DNA from: Paecilomyces variotii
Taxonomy: Eukaryota
DNA: 64,000 nucleotides
Strand: one strand, 5' to 3'
Assembly: GCA_004022145.1 (NCBI GenBank)
Contig: RCNU01000005.1
This document shows positions 12,179 to 21,945 of this stretch, piece by piece. Within the stretch, counting starts at the first letter, position 1. Every line of letters starts with the position of its first letter. The position numbers and the translations under genes are program-made. Under the pieces are notes generated by a model that was not told where the DNA came from, did no database searches, and saw only the letters and a program-made list of their open reading frames with translations.

Positions 12179-15100
12179 ATGGCGTCCGGTTATAACCTAG
12201 GGTCCTCGGGGGCACCATCCCAACACCGTGGGGTGGATGGACGGTCATTATCAAGTCATGAAGGCTCTGCTGATGGGAGCTGGACGGAGACGGCCTCGCG
12301 GGGAAACCGAAATGGACGTTCTGGCTCTGGAGGCAGCAGCAGCATCGGTCCGCGAGGTACCTCGCTTACTCCATCCCTCCCTCCACCTGGCAGTTTCAGC
12401 TCGGATTTGAAGAGTATGAGCACGTCGCGGAGTACGACGCCACGACAAGAAGTGTTGTTCCCCAGGCAGGGTAATAATACCATCGAGGAGGATGAGGTTA
12501 CCGGCACAGAAGAACGGCAGGCAGTTCTTAGGGACAAGATTGCAAAAGAAATGAAGATCAAAACAGGCACAGAGAATATGTTGGAGGCATTGCTGGCCAA
12601 GAATCCAAAGCAGACAAAGGACCAGCGAATGAAGGTCGAGTCGGAGTTGAGTTCGGCAAACCGCAAGCTCGCGGAGCTCCATCATGAGCTGGAAGAGGAA
12701 TTGTTGCGTGCACAGGTGCCATCGACACCACCCCGAAATCGTATCTCTACATTATTTCGGGGCAGTCCCCTACGGTCCCCTTCTCGACAGGTGGACGTCG
12801 CCGATGAGGACCAGATAGAGGCTGACGGGGAGACGGAGTCGCCTACGTACGTCCTCTCGGAGACTCTCCAGGCTCTGGAGATCGAGGGGATGTCGCCAGA
12901 TTATTACGTGGAGAGGGCGAATAGCTTGGTGGAACTATTCAGACGATATCCAACGCTTAAATACGATTTGGCATGGTCAGTATTTGGATTGCGGGTGCAG
13001 GTGATGCTCCTGAGCGATAGCAGAGAGGTCATTGCGGCGGGGTACCGATTGACTCGCTATGCCATTGCGGATCGCAAGTCGATCCAGATCATAAGGTCAT
13101 TACACACAGACGAGTTGGTCATGCTTTCTCTTGTCAAAGAATCAAAGGCTAGCATGGAACGCGAGCAGGCCTTGAAATTCGTGAGAGCTTTTCTAGATGT
13201 CAAAGATGGAGTTCGCGAGATATCCCTCGCGGTCCTTAGGACCATCGTCTCTGTCGCGGAGCATCATGAGGACCGCTTGAAGAATATCACCCTGATGACT
13301 CTTGCGGAAATCTTGGTTAAAGACCCAGAGTTGCTCTTCAGCGCCGGTGGCTATGGTCCTCTGAACGACGCCCTTGCTGAAGGGACCTTTGGTGCATCGG
13401 AGAGTCTAATGGCCAGCTTTTTGCACATACTCGATCGACCGCAGAGCAGAAAGTACCTTCGAGGTGGTTGCGAGCTAGAATCGGTCCTCACTCCTTTCAC
13501 TGATTCGATAGCGGATAATATCCGTAATGGACGACTCAAATCTTCTGCAAGAGCCATCTCGGCCATGCTGAAGACCTGGCCAGGATTGCTGACACTGGCC
13601 AAGGATCGAGGCAGACCTCTCCGTTCCCTCCTGGAATCCTTACATTATCCCGATCCCCAGGCTAGGGATCTCATTATGGAGCTTCTGTTCGATGCTTTAC
13701 GTATCAAACCTCCTTCATGGTCGTCGTCTTTCCTAGCTGGCAGAAGGCTTACCACTTATGGTCGAGTATCCAACCTCAGGTCGGAAACCGACACCAAGCA
13801 ACTGCGTGCCTTCTATGATAAAGAGAGCAACCGGTTTGACCTCACAGCTCATTTCTCGGCTCTCATACTGGCAACCCTGCTGGATGCCGGGCTAGTCACG
13901 GTAATGGACATCGCAGCTCATCTTGCTATTACATTTACTAATCATTCTGCAGGCTCTCTCCGACCTTATTGAAGATGAGACGGACCTATCACTGAAGCGA
14001 AAGGCTACCTTGCTCCTCACCGAAGTCCTTAAACTTGCGCATCACTCGCTCCCTCGGTCGATCAGCGCTGGCCTCCAAGTACTTCCCCATCTACTTCCGG
14101 CTGCTGTCAACTTCAACTCCGACAAGCATGACATTTCCACATCAACTATCTACCAGATAGAAAGTATCAACCGCACTCTCACCAAGTCCGGCGGTTTCTC
14201 GACAGAGTCGGGCAGATATGCTGTGGATGCAGATATATCAGCTTCGCTGCTGTCGGGGGAACAGGCTAAAAATAAGCTGAGTGCCACAATGGACGAAACG
14301 CAGTTCCGCAATTTGATTCTAGAGACCCACGTCCTGAATACGGTCAACTACGTTAAATGGAAGTGGGATTTGATCCACCGTATCGTCGAAGGCCCCCTCA
14401 CGAATCCGAAAAGACTAGACGAGGCTATCAAAGGATCCAAGTTCATGAAGCGGCTAATTGGATTCTATCGACCCTTCAAATATAGGTTCTCCATGATTCC
14501 AAACACAAAGCCCAATTTGCGTTACATACGGACGGGCTGTGCTCTAATGCGGACGCTAGTGCAGAGCGCGGAAGGATCGAAATATCTGGCCGAAAATAAG
14601 TTGTTGAGGCAAATCGCGGAATGCCTAGCTCAAGTGGATCGAATGAGCGGATTGACTTCGTCTTCGCCGTTATTTTCAAGGGATCAGATGTCAAATACAC
14701 TGAGCGGTGGCTATTTCGCTTTACTGGGAACTCTAAGTTCCGATAGCAACGGACTGGCCATGATGGAGAGATGGCACATGCATAACATGTTCTATCATAT
14801 AATAGAACTGAAGGATCGAAACGACTTGATCCAAGCGCTCCTTGGAAATATGGACTTCAGCCTTGAGAGCCACCTCAGAGTCATATTATCCAAGGCCCTT
14901 ACCACATGCTCGAAGGATATCCGTATCTTTGCAACCAGGTTCCTCCGGAAATATGCCGTAGGCAATTCCTCACTTTCACCAAGCGGTACGGGAATAGGAA
15001 ATGCCGACTGGGTCGTGAAACTGCTCGTTACGCAGCTCTATGATCCAGATGTTGCGGTTTGCCAGGTTGCCGTCAAGATTCTTGAGGAGGCTTGCAATCA

Positions 15101-16275
15101 GCGCGACTATCTTGAGTACGTAGTCAGATGTCGACCTTCTCTCGACCATCTTGGCGAAATCGGTGCACCTCTCCTTCTGCGCTTCCTTTCAACCTCTGTA
15201 GGATATCACTACCTTGACGGTCTTGATTACATTACCCAGGAAATGGACGACTGGTTTCTGGGTCGAAACGATGCTTACGTGGGGCTTGTTGAGGCCTCCT
15301 TATCCCGAGCTTACGTCGACCAGCCTCGCAGGAACAGCTTTGTAGGTGACGATCTCGTTGAAATGCAAGACATCGGTCTTCTTCCCCCTCATTTCTATAG
15401 GGAACTTGCTCGCACCACTGAGGGCTGCAGGCTCTTGGAGCAGTCTGGGCATTTCAACGAATTTGCATCCACGATACGAGATTTCGAGTTGACAGAAGAG
15501 GACCCCGAGCTGCTGCTGAAAGTAAAAGGCTGTCTCTGGGCGGTGGGTAACGTCGGATCGATGGAGCTGGGAGCATCCTTCCTCGAAGAAACGGATATCG
15601 TAAAGGATATTGTCAAGATTGCTGAAGAAGCAGAGGTCTTGACCATGCGAGGAACAGCATTCTTTGTCCTTGGACTGATATCCAGGAGCCGACATGGACT
15701 GGAGATGCTTATAGAGAACGGATGGGATTCTGCGGTGGACCAGAAAGGAGATTCCTTGGGACAATGCCTGCCTATGGACTTGAGCAAGCTGTATACTGTG
15801 AGTCACGTTCAACGGGCGTTTGAAGAATCGTTGTTGATCCGGTTATACCAGATATCTTTCCCTAAACTTCCTCGGAATTCGCAATTTAGACGTGTTTCTC
15901 GAGAGTTGTTCAAGGCAGCGACAACGGACTCGAATCCACTGAACGAAAAGATTTTGAAATCTATAGTGGATATGGGTAACACCGTGCTGTCTAAACGAGC
16001 TGCCACCGAGCTTCAGAGGTGAGTTGAAACCATCCCAGCGCTCTCTATATGAAATGTCGGATCTAACAGTACATCTTTGTAGCCTGAAAACAAAGCATCC
16101 TGAATGTTTCCGCCAGGTCGCCCTTTTCCGAAAGACCCTTATGATCCTGGAAAGTCATCACTACCGGCTCCCGGCCAGACGCTTTGCTCTAGACCTCTTT
16201 GACAAGAGCGTGATGAGGCGGGTCGTCCTTGAAGAAGATACAGATAGCGACTCTGACAGCTCTATGTCGCAGTAA
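12179..16275 (+). CDS. AVO3: TORC2 subunit Rictor/Avo3/Ste20 (HR1 + RICTOR domains), 4 exons
   Basis: HR1-like LRDKIAKEMKIKTGTENML; RICTOR_N motif WSSSFLAGRRLTTYGR; PPHFYRELARTTEGC; LKVKGCLWAVGNVGS. Introns at ~13901-13952, ~15798-15851 and ~16019-16082. Confidence 0.93.
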
Positions 16276-17376: not shown

Positions 17377-19115
17377 ATGTCGGCGCAAGATTCCAACGCC
17401 TCGGACTTTCCGCCTACCTCCGCAGCGCGAGATGATGTTAGAGACGACGACAACGTCACAGCTCAGAGTAGCTCGCCCACGCCAGACTCGACGATACGGA
17501 CGGATGTATTAGATCCTTATATCAATCCTGCTGCTATTGTACGGTTAATTCAGTGTCCGCGATGCAATCTGCCCTTACGGAACCCGCTCCGATTGCCGTG
17601 CGGAAAGACACATTGTCGATCATGTCTGCCGCCGGTGTGGAAGCGGCCGAGAATCACATATCCGGTTGATGAGGGTCGAGAGGATGGGTTCACGTGTTGG
17701 TGGTGCGAGAGCGAACATGCGCTGGGCGATTGTGGCGTGGATGTCTTAGCTGCGAAGGTTGTCGAGCTGTTTCGATCGGTGCTGGAGGGGGAACATGCTG
17801 CTGGTCAGTATGGCGGAGGGGAAAACAGAGTCGTTGTTCGGTGGAGACAACCTGGTGTAACTGGCAAAGAGGAAGATGATATTCCGGAGGAAGCTGTTGT
17901 TGACGGAAGTCGTTTGCGCGGTACCTATATGCTGGTAAAGGAAGGGCGACTCAAGCACGAAGCTCTCGGTGTGACTTACGAGCCGGATGGGGAGTTCGAT
18001 GAATCCGAGAAGGCGGTATTGGAAAAGATCAAGGACGTTACGAGGAACGAGCTTGATTGCCAAGTATGCTATTGTCTCATTCTGGATCCGTTGACGACTC
18101 CTTGCGGACATACGTTCTGTCGAAAGTGCCTGGCTCGGATCCTAGATCATTCCAATCTCTGTCCGATTTGTCGAAGAAAGATCAGCATGCCACCAGCAGT
18201 GAGTTCTGAGCCTGTCAATGGGTTGTTATCGCGTCTCTTGGATACGTTTTTTGAAAATCAAGTTTCTGCACGAAGAGAAGCTGCCGCGAGAGACGAGGTT
18301 GGTCTCAATGATGGCAGAGCTTTGCCCTTATTTGTCTGTACCCTTTCCTTTCCGACGATGCCGACTTTCTTGCATATTTTCGAGCCTAGATATCGTCTCA
18401 TGATTCGACGAGCGCTGGAAAATGGTGGGCGGAAGTTTGGTATGGTTGCCTTTAACCATTCCGGATCGCCTCAAGGGGAACTGGGGAGAAGCCAATTCAT
18501 GCAGTACGGCACTGTCCTTGTGATTGATAGGTTTGAGCTGCTTCCCGATGGCAGAAGCCTTGTTTCCGCAGTCGGTGTATCTAGATTCAAGGTGCTAGAA
18601 TACGCTCTCGTGGATGGGTATTACGTTGGAATAACTGAGCGTGTCGATGATGTCTCGTTAGCTGAGGAAGAAAGGATCGAATCAACAGAAACTGCCGCAG
18701 CAGCAGTCACTATGCCCATCCCAGAAGAAGGCGGTACTGCTGAAGTGCCCCTCGAGTCTCTCTCCACCCAGCAACTGTTGCAGATTGGTCTGGACTTTGT
18801 GGACAAACGGCGTGCCGATTCTGCACCATGGCTGCATCGCCGTATTCTAACTGCCTATGGTGATGTGCCGACAGATGCAGCGCGGTTCGCCTGGTGGCTT
18901 GCCAGCATCCTCCCTATTCCAGAGGAAGAGAGATACTCTCTACTTCCTACAACGAGCGTGAGAGAACGCCTGAAGATCACAGCTCGCTGGGTAAAGAAGC
19001 TGGAAACCATCACGGACTGGTAGGTTCCTAAAATCTCCATTATATCCCGCACTGTTCTGACAGCACAACTCCTGCACGAAGGTCAACGAGCACTTCAGCA
19101 TGTGCGGTCTTATGA
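17377..19115 (+). CDS. crgA: CrgA-like RING finger / LON-substrate-binding domain protein (LONRF family) ending in CaaX (CAVL)
   Basis: Two RING motifs (CPRC..LPCGKTHCRSC and CQVC..TPCGHTFCRKC..CPIC) and LON_N LPLFVCTLSFPTMPTFLHIFEPRYRLMIRR. Intron 19020-19081 (GTAGGT..CTGAC..AAG) gives a last exon WSTSTSACAVL*. Confidence 0.88.
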
Positions 19116-19493
19116 CTAGCCGTCCCTCTGCTCCTCTTAGTGATCCTCCCTCTCATTATCGGCCCCTTTACGGCCTCATTCTCCTCTGCTTCTGCGAGGG
19201 TCTCAACTTCTCTTCTCCCCTTCGGTTTCTCCGTCTCTTTCTCATTTGGGCCAAATATCGTGCCGCCTGAGGGCAGTCGTCGCCGCGTTATTCAGCCTGC
19301 CTCTCGGCAGACGGCGACCTATATTCCCCAGACAATAGTCTTGGGAGCCCTCACCCTTCTGTTTGTGGCACGTCTAGCGACCAATGTGGCTCTGGTGAGG
19401 CGGTCGAGGCAACAAAGGCACGATGAGAGAAGACACAGAGTGGTCATTGTAACGGACCGCAGTGGGAATAGAACAGTGAGACGGACGGGTTAA
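19116..19493 (+). other. Putative stop-codon readthrough extension of crgA (125 codons, two hydrophobic segments)
   Basis: In frame with the crgA TGA, context TGA CTA G, no in-frame ATG. Encodes LAVPLLLLVILPLIIGPF and TIVLGALTLLFVARLATNVALV followed by a basic tail. Confidence 0.6.
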
Positions 19494-19941
19494 AGTGGTC
19501 GGGCAGAGGGACGTCGGGTGCAGCCATCTGATCTGAATCCTGAGTAGATTTTCCTGTTCAAAAGTGGAAATGCCCAGCCTGGTATGCCTTTGTTGATAGC
19601 CGGCAAATTGCGCTCTGTGAAGCAAAAAGTCGCGGGTTGTTGGCTAGTTCCCAATATATGCAAGAACTCCAGCTATTCAGTCAGTGAATTTCTGGCTGCT
19701 GTGAAGGAAATGGTGGGTGGGCTTCCCGGTGTGTCCTGCTATAACACCGTCCTCCCCTGAAGGATCCCCCTTATTCATCTCTCCTCACATCTTATCCTTC
19801 GCTGCTGCTGATGTTTAAGCATCACAAAGTTGCTTCATCACCAGGCAAATTCAGGTACCACAGACTGGCCATCCCAGTATCTCGCAGGCTTTCCTTCTCC
19901 TTCTCTCTTTTCGCACGCTTCTGCATATAAGTAAGCGCAAC

Positions 19942-21945
19942 ATGCAGTCACAACTGTCAGAACTATCGAACGCGGTTGGGCACCATCCATATGGGCGCCT
20001 CACTCAGGATTTCCTAGGCAGATTTCCTAAGTCACCACTCCTTAAGGAGGCGGATGTGCCATATGTTGTGGCGCTGGGTAAGAAAGGATGTGGGAAAAGC
20101 TCACTTCTGAGAGCACTGTCAGGCATTCCGTTTCCTACTGGGCTAGATGGTACCGTTATTGCGACAGAAATCGTTCTGCGACAATCCGACTCACGGTCCA
20201 GACATATGACTATGATCTTTCTTACGTCGGAAGTTAGATCAAAGGCACCTCCTGCCATCAGGTTGGAACTCGAGGAGGATTTCGATATCCCGATGCTTAT
20301 TCAGAACGCTGAGACGCAAGCGCGAGATCTCAGAGCATGGGTCACAGGCGAACATATCCTGAGAATCGAAATGTGTGGCTTTGGCCTACCACACATCGCA
20401 TTCGTTGATCTCCCAGGAAAGACCGGTGATTCGATAAAGGACGCCATTGTTGATAAGCTGATGCAGCGATACGTGTCGAATGAGGGCACAGTCGTACTCA
20501 ATGCCATCCCTGGGAGTGACGTCCCCATTGACGTCGATGCCTCTGGACTTCCTCCCAATCGTACGATCAACGTTATCGTCAAACCAGAGACAGTGGATCC
20601 CCAAATATCCCTTGACTATCTGAGATCTCTCTTCGCAAAGCGGCGTACGTCTCATGGCTCACTGAGTTGGCATATTGTGCCTTCCCCAATTGCATCGTCC
20701 ACCGACATATCTTCCATCGTTTGGACTCCGCCGTGGAACTGTCTGCAAAGAATTGACATGGGATTTGAGTCATTGAGGGTCAAACTTCTAGACCTGTGTG
20801 AAGCTCAGTTCCTAACCAGTTTCCCCAGACTTGCGAAAGAAATTGAAGCAAAAGGGAAACATTACGATAAACAAGCTTATGAATGTGACGAAAGCAAAGC
20901 GCGACAACATCTTACGGGTCTCTGTCGCCGCTTCGAAACGTTGGTGAAAACTTCAATAAATGGCGAATACGAGGATTCTTTCTTTGAGATAGGGGACTTC
21001 AATCTTCGACGGTTGAAACTCACTATCGATGAAACTAAGCACTATCTCCGATCTCGCCTGCAGAGGAGAGCTCAGGAAACAAGGCTGCTGGATGAAAATG
21101 CTCCCTCGTCCTCCATTAGTGACTTCCTCGCAGCGTCGCAAGAAGGAGCAGAGCTTACACAACAATTTGACCTTCTACTCCAGCAAGACTCCAGTCAGCG
21201 CTCGTCAGATCTCGAAGGCAAGGGGCTAGTCGAGAAATTCATTTCTATTCTAACCGCAGACTGGTCATTCATCATCGAAGAGTGCATGTATAGAGCGACA
21301 CAAGGTTGCTTATTTCTCATGCAGGAGATTCTTCAGCACACTACGGTCCCACAGGTTTCAAAAATTCTTGATAGACGTGTTTTAACGCCGGCTTTCAGAT
21401 CGAGGGAGACAGCTGCTCTGGCTAAAGTGCGTGAGCTAGCTGCGTCGCGCTGTCAACCAGAGACTGTCGCAGTAACTCCAGAGTTACAGCGCGAGCTGGA
21501 GAAACTACAAAAATGCCTGGACGGGGCCCATGGACCCGAACACCGAGAAGCCGTCTACTCGAACATTTTATGTTGCTCGCGGCTTTACTTTGGACTCTGT
21601 CTCGAGGCCATCATTGAGAAAGTTGAAAAAGAAGTGATCGAGAAGTGCTTACTAGAGGGACTACCCGAGCTTCTCCTGCAAACAGTGAACGACATTAACA
21701 TTCCTCGAAGCTCTCTACGCCAAATGCTCAGAAAGCACCGAGAAAAATTGACCAGACTGTTCCGCCAGACAGAGTGCAAAGTTGCATATCTCCAGAGCAA
21801 AAGCGATGGATTCCGGACCTGTCCGTCTGAGGAATCACGCGAGGCTGCTGGGCAGCGAGTACTTCTGGGATACCGTCTTAAGGATCCCCCTGTTTACATC
21901 TCCGATCAGTATATGGACTCACAGCTGAAGAGAGGACCGAAATAA
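19942..21945 (+). CDS. Divergent dynamin-family (Mx/DLP-like) GTPase, intronless
   Basis: G1 GKKGCGKSSLLRALSGIPFP, TVIATEIVLR, G3 FVDLPG, G4-like VKPE, and a helical stalk with AIIEKVEKEVIEKCLLEGLPEL. Confidence 0.8.
   Translation: MQSQLSELSNAVGHHPYGRLTQDFLGRFPKSPLLKEADVPYVVALGKKGCGKSSLLRALSGIPFPTGLDGTVIATEIVLRQSDSRSRHMTMIFLTSEVRSKAPPAIRLELEEDFDIPMLIQNAETQARDLRAWVTGEHILRIEMCGFGLPHIAFVDLPGKTGDSIKDAIVDKLMQRYVSNEGTVVLNAIPGSDVPIDVDASGLPPNRTINVIVKPETVDPQISLDYLRSLFAKRRTSHGSLSWHIVPSPIASSTDISSIVWTPPWNCLQRIDMGFESLRVKLLDLCEAQFLTSFPRLAKEIEAKGKHYDKQAYECDESKARQHLTGLCRRFETLVKTSINGEYEDSFFEIGDFNLRRLKLTIDETKHYLRSRLQRRAQETRLLDENAPSSSISDFLAASQEGAELTQQFDLLLQQDSSQRSSDLEGKGLVEKFISILTADWSFIIEECMYRATQGCLFLMQEILQHTTVPQVSKILDRRVLTPAFRSRETAALAKVRELAASRCQPETVAVTPELQRELEKLQKCLDGAHGPEHREAVYSNILCCSRLYFGLCLEAIIEKVEKEVIEKCLLEGLPELLLQTVNDINIPRSSLRQMLRKHREKLTRLFRQTECKVAYLQSKSDGFRTCPSEESREAAGQRVLLGYRLKDPPVYISDQYMDSQLKRGPK

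What the first reader, a model, noticed from the sequence alone, without database searches (positions are those of the whole stretch)
19082..19493. CrgA-like RING/LON ligase: CaaX stop in a UGA-CUAG readthrough context followed by an in-frame two-TM extension (candidate prenyl-to-transmembrane anchor switch)
Seen: after intron 19020-19081 the last exon encodes ...SACAVL and stops at TGA 19113-19115. The next bases are CTAG, and the same frame stays open for 125 codons to TAA 19491-19493 with no ATG, so it cannot be an ordinary separate gene. The extension begins with LAVPLLLLVILPLIIGPF and has a second hydrophobic stretch TIVLGALTLLFVARLATNVALV followed by RRSRQQRH. Established: UGA-CUA(G) is the best-known programmed readthrough context in animals and fungi, where it has been described mainly for short cryptic PTS1 tails. 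CaaX ending in Leu is a geranylgeranylation signal that works only at the C-terminus, and Mucor CrgA has an isoprenylation motif. Inference: termination gives a prenylated protein, while readthrough buries the CaaX and gives an integral-membrane isoform, so one stop codon would set how a putative E3 ligase is anchored. I do not know of this being described.
Basis: partly seen in the sequence, partly recalled or inferred. Interest (0 to 1): 0.88.

Follow-up and report, generated by a model that had tools for sequence, protein, structure and literature searches.

The report
Leaky stop adds membrane anchor
A fungal ubiquitin-ligase-like gene ends at a stop codon in a known "leaky" context, and the 125 codons behind it encode two membrane-spanning helices that are conserved in the same frame across many moulds, so some ribosomes probably read through to make a membrane-anchored version.

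Summary
The window comes from Paecilomyces variotii. Its CrgA/LONRF-like RING-LON gene ends ...SACAVL-TGA-CTAG, and the same frame stays open for 125 codons with no ATG. RNA-derived contigs from two runs confirm the intron 19020-19081.

The extension is conserved as protein:
- A profile built from 15 other Eurotiales tails finds it among 1359 six-frame ORFs of the window at E 7e-18; the next hit has E 0.36.
- It aligns from the first residue after the stop with a Penicillium-like locus whose 23 bases around TGA-CTAG are identical.
- Forty-five divergent clusters carry it.
- Substitutions peak at third codon positions, omega is about 0.24, and 3 of 3 strain SNPs are synonymous.
- Aspergillus candidus and A. 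campestris have Trp at the stop position, and one ENA contig has Arg.

Programmed UGA readthrough giving a two-helix membrane isoform is the best explanation (confidence about 0.8). Translation itself is untested. The prenyl-to-membrane switch is specific to some lineages: 25 of 28 Eurotiales short tails lack the CaaX cysteine. Four literature searches found no description of this.

The parts
17377..19019 (+). Exon 1 of the CrgA/LONRF-like gene (RING fingers plus LON substrate-binding domain)
   Evidence: Pfam LON_substr_bdg E 5.4e-32 and RING families, with 2 stretches for zf-C3HC4_2. 99% identical to the named P. variotii protein P0001.
19020..19081 (+). Intron (GTAGGT...GAAG), phase 2
   Evidence: The joint 19019|19082 (skips 62, GT..AG) is seen in contigs of runs X5 and X10.
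19082..19112 (+). Exon 2 coding tail (W)STSTSACAVL. The CaaX-type box CAVL lies at 19101-19112.
   Evidence: Sequence. P0001 ends ...SACAVL. Cys at -4 is also present in Thermoascus P0003 and Rasamsonia P0035.
19113..19119 (+). TGA stop followed by CTAG, the readthrough context
   Evidence: The 23-nt block GTCTTATGACTAGCCGTCCCTCT is identical in L001. The UGA CU(A)(G) motif is shown to be leaky in U. maydis and human cells (PMC4207609, passages).
19116..19169 (+). Extension residues 1-18, LAVPLLLLVILPLIIGPF: predicted membrane helix 1
   Evidence: KD19 maximum 2.48. AlphaFold2 helix at residues 2-21, pLDDT 64-79. LAVPLL directly follows the stop position in L001, P0076, P0166, P0125, P0137 and P0149.
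19218..19250 (+). Conserved loop motif PFGFSVSFSFG (extension residues 35-45)
   Evidence: Aligned with the PFS(F/L/M)S(V/I)S(V/I)SFG motifs of the orthologues.
19332..19397 (+). Extension residues 73-94, TIVLGALTLLFVARLATNVALV: predicted membrane helix 2, preceded by the conserved TYIPQ
   Evidence: KD19 maximum 1.91. AlphaFold2 helix at residues 72-110, pLDDT 91-95. Q72, V75 and G77 are present in at least 90% of 42 sequences.
19398..19421 (+). Basic stretch RRSRQQRH after helix 2
   Evidence: The R-rich block is conserved in the alignment (R.RRRR in the consensus).
19491..19493 (+). TAA, the end of the extension frame
   Evidence: A close relative (P0122, 79% identity) runs 16 residues further.

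Best explanation
The UGA at 19113 is a leaky stop. Most ribosomes terminate there and make the 558-aa RING-LON protein ending in CAVL, a geranylgeranyl-type CaaX box. A fraction decode UGA with a near-cognate tRNA, helped by the CUAG context, and add 125 residues. These residues form a hydrophobic helix directly behind the stop, a loop of about 55 residues with a conserved FS.S.SFG motif, a second conserved helix (TYIPQT.V.G...), and a basic tail.

The long isoform would be an integral-membrane hairpin with the RING and LON domains and the basic tail on the cytosolic side. Its CaaX would be internal and therefore unusable.

Shown here: the anatomy, the splice junction, protein-level conservation of the extension in frame, and the identity of the stop context in one other genus.

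Inferred: that readthrough happens and at what rate, the membrane topology, prenylation of the short form, and any functional consequence.
For: 1. Homology in frame.
- An HMM built from 15 other Eurotiales tails, with the window excluded, hits the ORF 19116-19490 at 61.1 bits, E 7e-18, among 1359 six-frame ORFs. The next best hit scores 7.1 bits.
- BLASTP against the L001 extension gives 63.9 bits, E 9e-19, with 41 of 104 residues identical. The alignment starts at residue 1 after the stop in both sequences.

2. Breadth.
- A profile search of 1.84 billion representatives gave 45 proteins at E<=1e-3 and 23 at E<=1e-10.
- 14 of 120 orthologue gene models carry the same TM2 motif.
- A homologous tail is present in Myotisia sp. 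(Onygenales).

3. Coding signature.
- Window versus L001 differences by codon position are 44/36/72 over 101 codons. Nei-Gojobori omega is 0.24, with dS saturated.
- Strain variants: 3 of 3 inside the extension (19226, 19418, 19421) are third-position and synonymous by my reading. The 402 nt after the TAA hold 7 variants plus a 16-nt insertion.

4. Stop and context.
- L001 has ...SLNSVL-TGA-CTAG, with 23 identical bases.
- Wrong-frame gene models ending LMTSRP (P0046, P0050, P0106), LMTTRP (P0056) or S(Y/C)D-stop (P0017, P0026, P0052, P0065) imply the same bases. This is inferred.

5. Sense codons at the stop position.
- A. candidus P0076 and A. campestris P0166 read ...TPLL-W-LAVPL.
- P0125 reads ...NSVL-R-LAVPLL, and P0137 reads ...TSVL-W-LAVPLL.

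6. RNA.
- A spliced contig runs from the CDS through the whole extension (X5).
- No good-consensus in-frame intron could remove the TGA. The available donors are GTCAAC, GTGCGG and GTCTTA.

7. Known biology.
- UGA CU(A)(G) drives readthrough in a fungus and in human cells (PMC4207609, passages).
Against: - There is no direct evidence of translation past the stop.
- DNA of the stop region is in hand for only two Eurotiales (the window and L001). All other contexts are inferred from protein models.
- The Trp in P0137 comes from an automatic ORF call that may have read TGA as Trp, so it may not be a TGG.
- The window's extension on its own found nothing at E<=10 in the 5.8-billion-protein database.
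- Contigs cannot place the poly(A) site. A contig of run X11 joins 19385-19729 by a + strand intron to the 5' region of the downstream gene. RNA over the distal extension may therefore partly belong to another transcript.
- The first helix lies in a CT-rich tract where all three frames are open, and it has only moderate model confidence.
- No conserved downstream RNA structure was found; only 3 invariant pairs were predicted.
Confidence: 0.8

Rival explanations
1. Alternative splicing, not readthrough, joins the LON domain to the extension. An intron would remove the stop, as many automatic gene models assume.
For: 14 of 120 orthologue models reach the extension through predicted introns. Contigs drop rare isoforms, so a minor splice form cannot be excluded.
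Against: - These models use different, mutually inconsistent junctions.
- In the window, the only in-frame GT..AG pairs that remove the TGA have poor donors (GTCAAC, GTGCGG, GTCTTA), and every one would delete helix 1.
- Amino-acid conservation starts at the first codon after the stop (LAVPLL) and ends at the last codon before it, which leaves no room for an intron.
- The two spliced contigs show only the 19019|19082 joint.
Confidence: 0.06
2. The extension is a separate small membrane protein. It would be translated on its own from a non-AUG start or from its own transcript, and it only happens to lie behind the ligase gene.
For: ORF callers list it as a stand-alone protein of 49-164 aa in most of the 45 clusters. 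The X11 contig shows that other transcripts cross part of the region. Non-AUG initiation is cited for Mucor crgA itself, in a reference-list entry of PMC5715946.
Against: - The extension has no ATG in the window.
- It is in frame with the upstream CDS in both DNA cases (window and L001).
- It is fused to the upstream CDS through a sense codon in A. candidus, A. campestris and P0125.
- Conservation begins exactly at the stop.
Confidence: 0.05
3. A-to-I mRNA editing turns UGA into UGG in some life stage, as described for stop-loss editing in Fusarium. Termination would then be removed at the RNA level.
For: Stage-specific editing-mediated stop-codon removal exists in Fusarium graminearum (PMC13123824; search listing and abstract only). 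The outcome, Trp at the stop, matches the sense codon in A. candidus.
Against: - No G variant at 19115 appears in any of the 4 runs laid. These are contigs, so rare variants would be lost.
- The conserved feature is the CUAG after the stop, which is the readthrough signature.
- From recall, not tested here: fungal editing prefers U before the edited A, whereas here it is G, and such editing is not reported for Eurotiales.
Confidence: 0.03
4. The extension is not translated in stop-bearing species. It would be a relic of an ancestral constitutive C-terminus, or be conserved for an RNA-level reason.
For: Some lineages have the extension fused constitutively. The ORF is open by chance in 1.4-1.9% of shuffles.
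Against: - Two stop-bearing lineages in different genera (the window and L001) keep the frame open. Between them the extension shows a third-position excess and omega 0.24.
- Similarity is at the amino-acid level, at 39% identity.
- Within-species variants are synonymous in 3 of 3 cases.
Confidence: 0.06

Closest known systems
Functional translational readthrough at UGA CU(A)(G) that creates peroxisomal isoforms (U. maydis Tpi1; human LDHB and MDH1)
   Same: A UGA stop followed by CUA(G), a conserved in-frame extension, and one mRNA giving two differently localised isoforms (PMC4207609 passages; PMC4359377 abstract).
   Different: The payload here is 125 residues with two predicted membrane helices, not a short PTS1 tail. 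The extension also buries a CaaX box, and the protein is a RING-LON ligase-like regulator rather than a metabolic enzyme.
Mucor circinelloides CrgA and Fusarium CarS (RING-finger, LON-domain repressors of carotenogenesis)
   Same: The domain architecture, RING fingers plus a LON substrate-binding domain. CrgA has a C-terminal isoprenylation site (PMC5715946 passages), as the window protein has CAVL.
   Different: That review mentions no readthrough or membrane extension for CrgA or CarS, and CarS is said to lack the prenylation site. The function of the P. variotii gene is unknown.
Predicted transmembrane helices in readthrough extensions of Drosophila and Arabidopsis
   Same: The idea that readthrough can add a membrane helix: 8 extensions in fly (PMC3840789 passages) and 8 of 144 in Arabidopsis (PMC9293766 passages).
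   Different: Those cases are predicted helices on unrelated proteins in animals and plants. In the passages read, none is paired with a CaaX box that the extension would bury. This case is fungal, has two helices, is conserved across at least two orders, and has natural stop-to-sense variants.
A-to-I editing-mediated stop-codon removal in Fusarium (Dbf2)
   Same: A stop codon is bypassed to make a C-terminally extended isoform in a filamentous ascomycete (PMC13123824, abstract only).
   Different: That mechanism acts at the RNA level. Here the conserved signal is the post-stop CUAG, and no edited base was seen in the contigs.

Membership tests
Programmed UGA-CUA(G) translational readthrough | UGA stop followed directly by CUA, ideally CUAG | tested here: met
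   TGA CTAG at 19113-19119. The same context is in L001 and L005, and L004 has TGA CTA T.
Programmed UGA-CUA(G) translational readthrough | In-frame downstream ORF conserved as protein (purifying selection) | tested here: met
   Profile E 7e-18. BLASTP E 9e-19. 45 clusters. Codon-position differences 44/36/72 and omega 0.24.
Programmed UGA-CUA(G) translational readthrough | Stop codon and context conserved among orthologues, or replaced only by sense codons | tested here: inconclusive
   DNA was seen for only 2 Eurotiales, and both have TGA-CTAG. Eight wrong-frame models imply the same bases. Sense codons occur in P0076, P0166, P0125 and perhaps P0137. No genome-wide DNA survey was possible.
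Programmed UGA-CUA(G) translational readthrough | Extended protein or ribosome footprints detected | not testable with these tools
   Only assembled contigs of RNA runs were available. There were no Ribo-seq or proteome data.
CrgA / CarS / LONRF family (RING plus LON N-terminal domain proteins) | RING finger(s) and a LON substrate-binding domain in one protein | tested here: met
   PF02190 E 5.4e-32, and PF13923 with 2 stretches, E 1.5e-13. Orthologues are named 'ATP-dependent protease (CrgA)'.
CrgA / CarS / LONRF family (RING plus LON N-terminal domain proteins) | Role as a repressor of carotenogenesis or as a ubiquitin ligase | not testable with these tools
   This is a functional property and was not addressed.
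CaaX-prenylated proteins (GGTase-I type, CaaL) | Cys at -4, two mostly aliphatic residues, and Leu at the C-terminus | tested here: met
   CAVL directly before the TGA. Leotiomycete orthologues keep C(T/N/S/G)(V/I)(L/V/I/F) in 20 tails among 120 models.
CaaX-prenylated proteins (GGTase-I type, CaaL) | CaaX conserved among close orthologues | tested here: not met
   Only 3 of 28 Eurotiales short tails have Cys at -4 (P0001, P0003, P0035). The other 25 have N, T, Y, A, H, L or S.
CaaX-prenylated proteins (GGTase-I type, CaaL) | Protein is actually prenylated | not testable with these tools
   This is a biochemical property.

The most novel reading that the evidence does not exclude
An old programmed UGA readthrough, present in Eurotiales and probably Onygenales, makes an integral-membrane isoform of the CrgA/LONRF-type RING-LON protein. 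A single-helix version may exist in Hyaloscypha and another fungus. Where the CaaX box is kept, as in P. variotii, one stop codon decides between a lipid anchor and a two-helix protein anchor. In some lineages the choice has been hard-wired by mutation of the stop to Trp or Arg.
Probability: 0.55. Interest if true: 0.85.

Novelty: new variant of a known kind. Interest (0 to 1): 0.74.

Why it matters
Functional readthrough in fungi is known mainly for short peroxisomal tails. This case would show the same UGA-CUAG signal delivering a whole membrane anchor to a regulatory RING-LON protein. That would change the protein's topology and cancel a prenylation signal.

It offers a directly testable system, with TGA-to-TGG and TGA-to-double-stop alleles, and natural 'fixed' variants in Aspergillus section Candidi. 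With it one can ask how a cell partitions a ligase between soluble or lipid-anchored and integral-membrane pools.

It also explains a widespread annotation problem. Among 120 orthologue models, 39 stop at exon 1, 14 invent introns to reach the extension, and 38 others run into the intron or a wrong frame. ORF callers list the extension as an orphan small protein.

Tried and rejected
- Whole genome: none is held for this window, so no genome-wide count of TGA-CTAG genes could be made.
- Searching the 5.8-billion-protein database with the window extension alone ('longer' lengths) gave nothing at E<=10. A profile search was needed.
- The extension has no Pfam family.
- The protein atlas did not place L004 or L005 taxonomically. 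L005 was placed by a homology search instead: 95% identity to a Hyaloscypha variabilis protein.
- The X2 metatranscriptome contig is unspliced and says nothing about splicing. Parts without contig cover in X10 and X11 are not evidence.
- Consensus RNA fold downstream of the stop: only 3 invariant pairs and no covariation.
- Alternative acceptors. The AG at 19062-19063 is in frame but sits directly on the CTGAC branch-like site. Both spliced contigs use 19081|19082.
- Selenocysteine: rejected. Fungi lack the machinery, as stated in PMC4207609 (passage).
- Earlier notes of this scan: nothing relevant.
- Supplementary tables of the readthrough papers, for example the candidate lists of PMC4207609, could not be seen. 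They may list further fungal candidates.

Full report
**What is there**

The window is from Paecilomyces variotii. The exon-1 translation is 99% identical to a named P. variotii protein of 558 aa (P0001), and that protein ends ...TDWSTSTSACAVL.

The gene encodes RING fingers and a LON substrate-binding domain (PF02190 E 5.4e-32; PF13923 with 2 stretches). This is the CrgA/CarS/LONRF architecture.

The gene anatomy is as follows:
- Exon 1 runs from ATG 17377 to 19019.
- The intron is 19020-19081.
- Exon 2 (19082-19112) adds STSTSACAVL.
- TGA lies at 19113-19115 and is followed by CTAG.
- The frame stays open for 125 codons, with no Met, to TAA at 19491.

The neighbours are a RICTOR gene upstream and a dynamin-family gene downstream. 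Neither explains the ORF.

**RNA**

Only assembled contigs were available. The 1241-nt X5 contig goes from the spliced CDS through the TGA and the whole extension, unspliced, to 19784.

The X2 contig is unspliced and uninformative.

An X11 contig covers 19385-19729. Its loose end matches the window sequence from about 19846. This implies a + strand intron that joins the region to the 5' part of the downstream gene. Contigs cannot place a poly(A) site, so the presence of the extension in the crgA mRNA is consistent with the data but not proven.

**Is it more than chance?**

ORF length alone is weak evidence. The frame is open in 95 of 5000 dinucleotide shuffles. The first 50 codons lie in a pyrimidine-rich tract, where the other two frames are open as well.

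**Comparative evidence for coding**

This evidence settles the matter.
- Among 120 orthologue gene models from Eurotiales, 14 contain a tail with the motif (T)YIPQTLV.G.FLAIF.AQ...N..Q..R.RR. It corresponds to the window's TYIPQTIVLGALTLLFVARLATNVALVRRSRQQR. Several also contain the FS.S.SFG motif.
- An HMM built from 15 such tails, with the window left out, finds the window ORF 19116-19490 at 61.1 bits, E 7e-18, among 1359 six-frame ORFs. The runner-up has 7.1 bits.
- A metagenome locus from a Penicillium-like genome (L001, 53% identity in the main protein) reads ...SARSSLNSVL-TGA-CTAG..., followed by 155 open codons.
- The two extensions align from residue 1 (LAVPLL...) at 63.9 bits, E 9e-19.
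- Their differences fall 44/36/72 on codon positions 1/2/3, and omega is 0.24 with saturated dS.
- A profile of the two extensions finds 45 cluster representatives (50% identity clusters) at E<=1e-3 among 1.84 billion proteins. Most are ORF-caller fragments of 49-164 aa.
- One full-length model is from Myotisia sp. (Onygenales).
- Within the P. variotii group, the three variant sites inside the extension (19226, 19418, 19421) are all third-position and synonymous. Five of 5 sites in exon 1 are third-position. The intron has 3 variants in 62 nt. The 402 nt behind the TAA have 7 variants plus a 16-nt insertion (codons read).

**The stop and its context**

The 23 bases GTCTTATGACTAGCCGTCCCTCT are identical between the window and L001, although the proteins are only about 55% identical.

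Eight wrong-frame gene models imply the same bases in further Aspergillus and Penicillium species. They end ...LMTSRP...LMTTRP or ...S(Y/C)D-stop. This is an inference from protein strings, not a reading of DNA.

Several sequences have a sense codon exactly at the stop position:
- A. candidus and A. campestris have Trp (...TPLL-W-LAVPL) and a continuous 700/702-aa protein.
- An ENA contig has Arg (P0125...NSVL-R-LAVPLL).
- P0137 has Trp. It comes from an automatic ORF call that may have read TGA as Trp, so I do not count it as firm.

**Why readthrough rather than splicing**

- Conservation runs up to the last codon before the stop and starts at the first codon after it.
- The sense-codon species are collinear, so there is no room for an intron.
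- The only in-frame GT..AG pairs that would remove the TGA in the window have poor donors and would delete helix 1.
- The annotators' introns differ from genome to genome.
- UGA followed by CU(A)(G) is the motif shown to be leaky in Ustilago maydis and human cells. Selenocysteine is excluded in fungi (PMC4207609, passages).

**What the extension would do**

Hydropathy gives two segments: residues 1-18 (maximum 2.48) and 73-94 (maximum 1.91).

AlphaFold2 on a 42-sequence alignment gives helices at residues 2-21 (pLDDT 64-79) and 72-110 (pLDDT 91-95), with a low-confidence loop between them.

With the basic block RRSRQQRH behind helix 2, a hairpin that keeps both ends in the cytosol is the simplest topology. 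This is an inference.

**The CaaX part**

CAVL is a CaaL box. The review PMC5715946 (passages) states that Mucor CrgA has a C-terminal isoprenylation site.

Leotiomycete orthologues keep ...SSC(T/N)V(L/V). In Eurotiales, however, only 3 of 28 short tails have the cysteine (P. variotii, Thermoascus, one Rasamsonia).

The prenyl-versus-membrane switch is therefore plausible for P. variotii. In Aspergillus and Penicillium the short form would simply lack an anchor.

**Beyond Eurotiomycetes**

- L005 is 95% identical to a Hyaloscypha variabilis protein. It reads ...SSCTVV-TGA-CTAG, followed by a 35-codon extension that begins with a hydrophobic stretch.
- L004, an unplaced fungus, reads ...NCTML-TGA-CTA-T, followed by 17 hydrophobic codons.
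- L002 has TGA-AGT-TGA and no extension.

Two of the three non-Eurotiales loci whose tails could be read suggest a tail-anchor version. I have no conservation test for them.

**Novelty**

Four full-text searches found no paper on this: CrgA+readthrough; LONRF+readthrough; readthrough+Aspergillus+C-terminal extension+stop codon; readthrough+CaaX+stop codon+membrane anchor.

Transmembrane helices in readthrough extensions have been predicted in Drosophila (8 cases) and Arabidopsis (8 of 144) (passages), so the principle is not new.

The fungal RING-LON case appears to be undescribed. Its distinctive features are the two helices, the buried CaaX, the deep conservation and the natural stop-to-sense variants. 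Supplementary tables of the readthrough papers could not be read.

**Verdict**

Translation, prenylation and function remain to be shown.

Noticed in passing
orthologue models P0001-P0120: Public gene models of this gene disagree widely. Of 120 models, 39 end at exon 1 and 28 have the short tail. 14 graft the extension on through differing predicted introns, 38 run into the intron or a wrong frame, and 1 has no recognisable motif. The readthrough structure would explain this disagreement.
   Followed up: partly
L005:822-929 and L004:5502-5555: A Hyaloscypha-like locus (...SSCTVV-TGA-CTAG plus 35 codons) and an unplaced fungal locus (...NCTML-TGA-CTA-T plus 17 hydrophobic codons) have a CaaX, the same leaky context and a single hydrophobic extension. 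This may be a tail-anchor form of the same device outside Eurotiomycetes.
   Followed up: partly
window 19729-19845: A contig of run X11 covers 19385-19729 and then continues with letters that match the window from about 19846. This implies a + strand intron, either in a long 5' UTR of the downstream dynamin-family gene (ATG 19942) or in a transcript that reads on from crgA.
   Followed up: no
window 19710: Three runs (X2, X5, X11) carry a 16-nt insertion behind 19710 relative to the window, in two variants that differ in the last base.
   Followed up: no
window 53953 and 54045 (+ strand): There are two further TGACTAG heptamers on the + strand, and five on the - strand at 2451, 13892, 28429, 33470 and 47130. 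I did not check whether any of them is a gene's stop codon.
   Followed up: no
P0122 versus window 19491-19493: A close Paecilomyces relative (79% identity over the extension) lacks the TAA at this place and runs 16 residues further. The far C-terminal end of the extension is therefore variable, while both helices are conserved.
   Followed up: partly
window 13905-16019 and 19942-21942: The flanking genes are a RICTOR homologue (RICTOR_M E 3.4e-40) and a dynamin-family GTPase (Dynamin_N E 4.7e-07). I see no link between them and the finding.
   Followed up: yes
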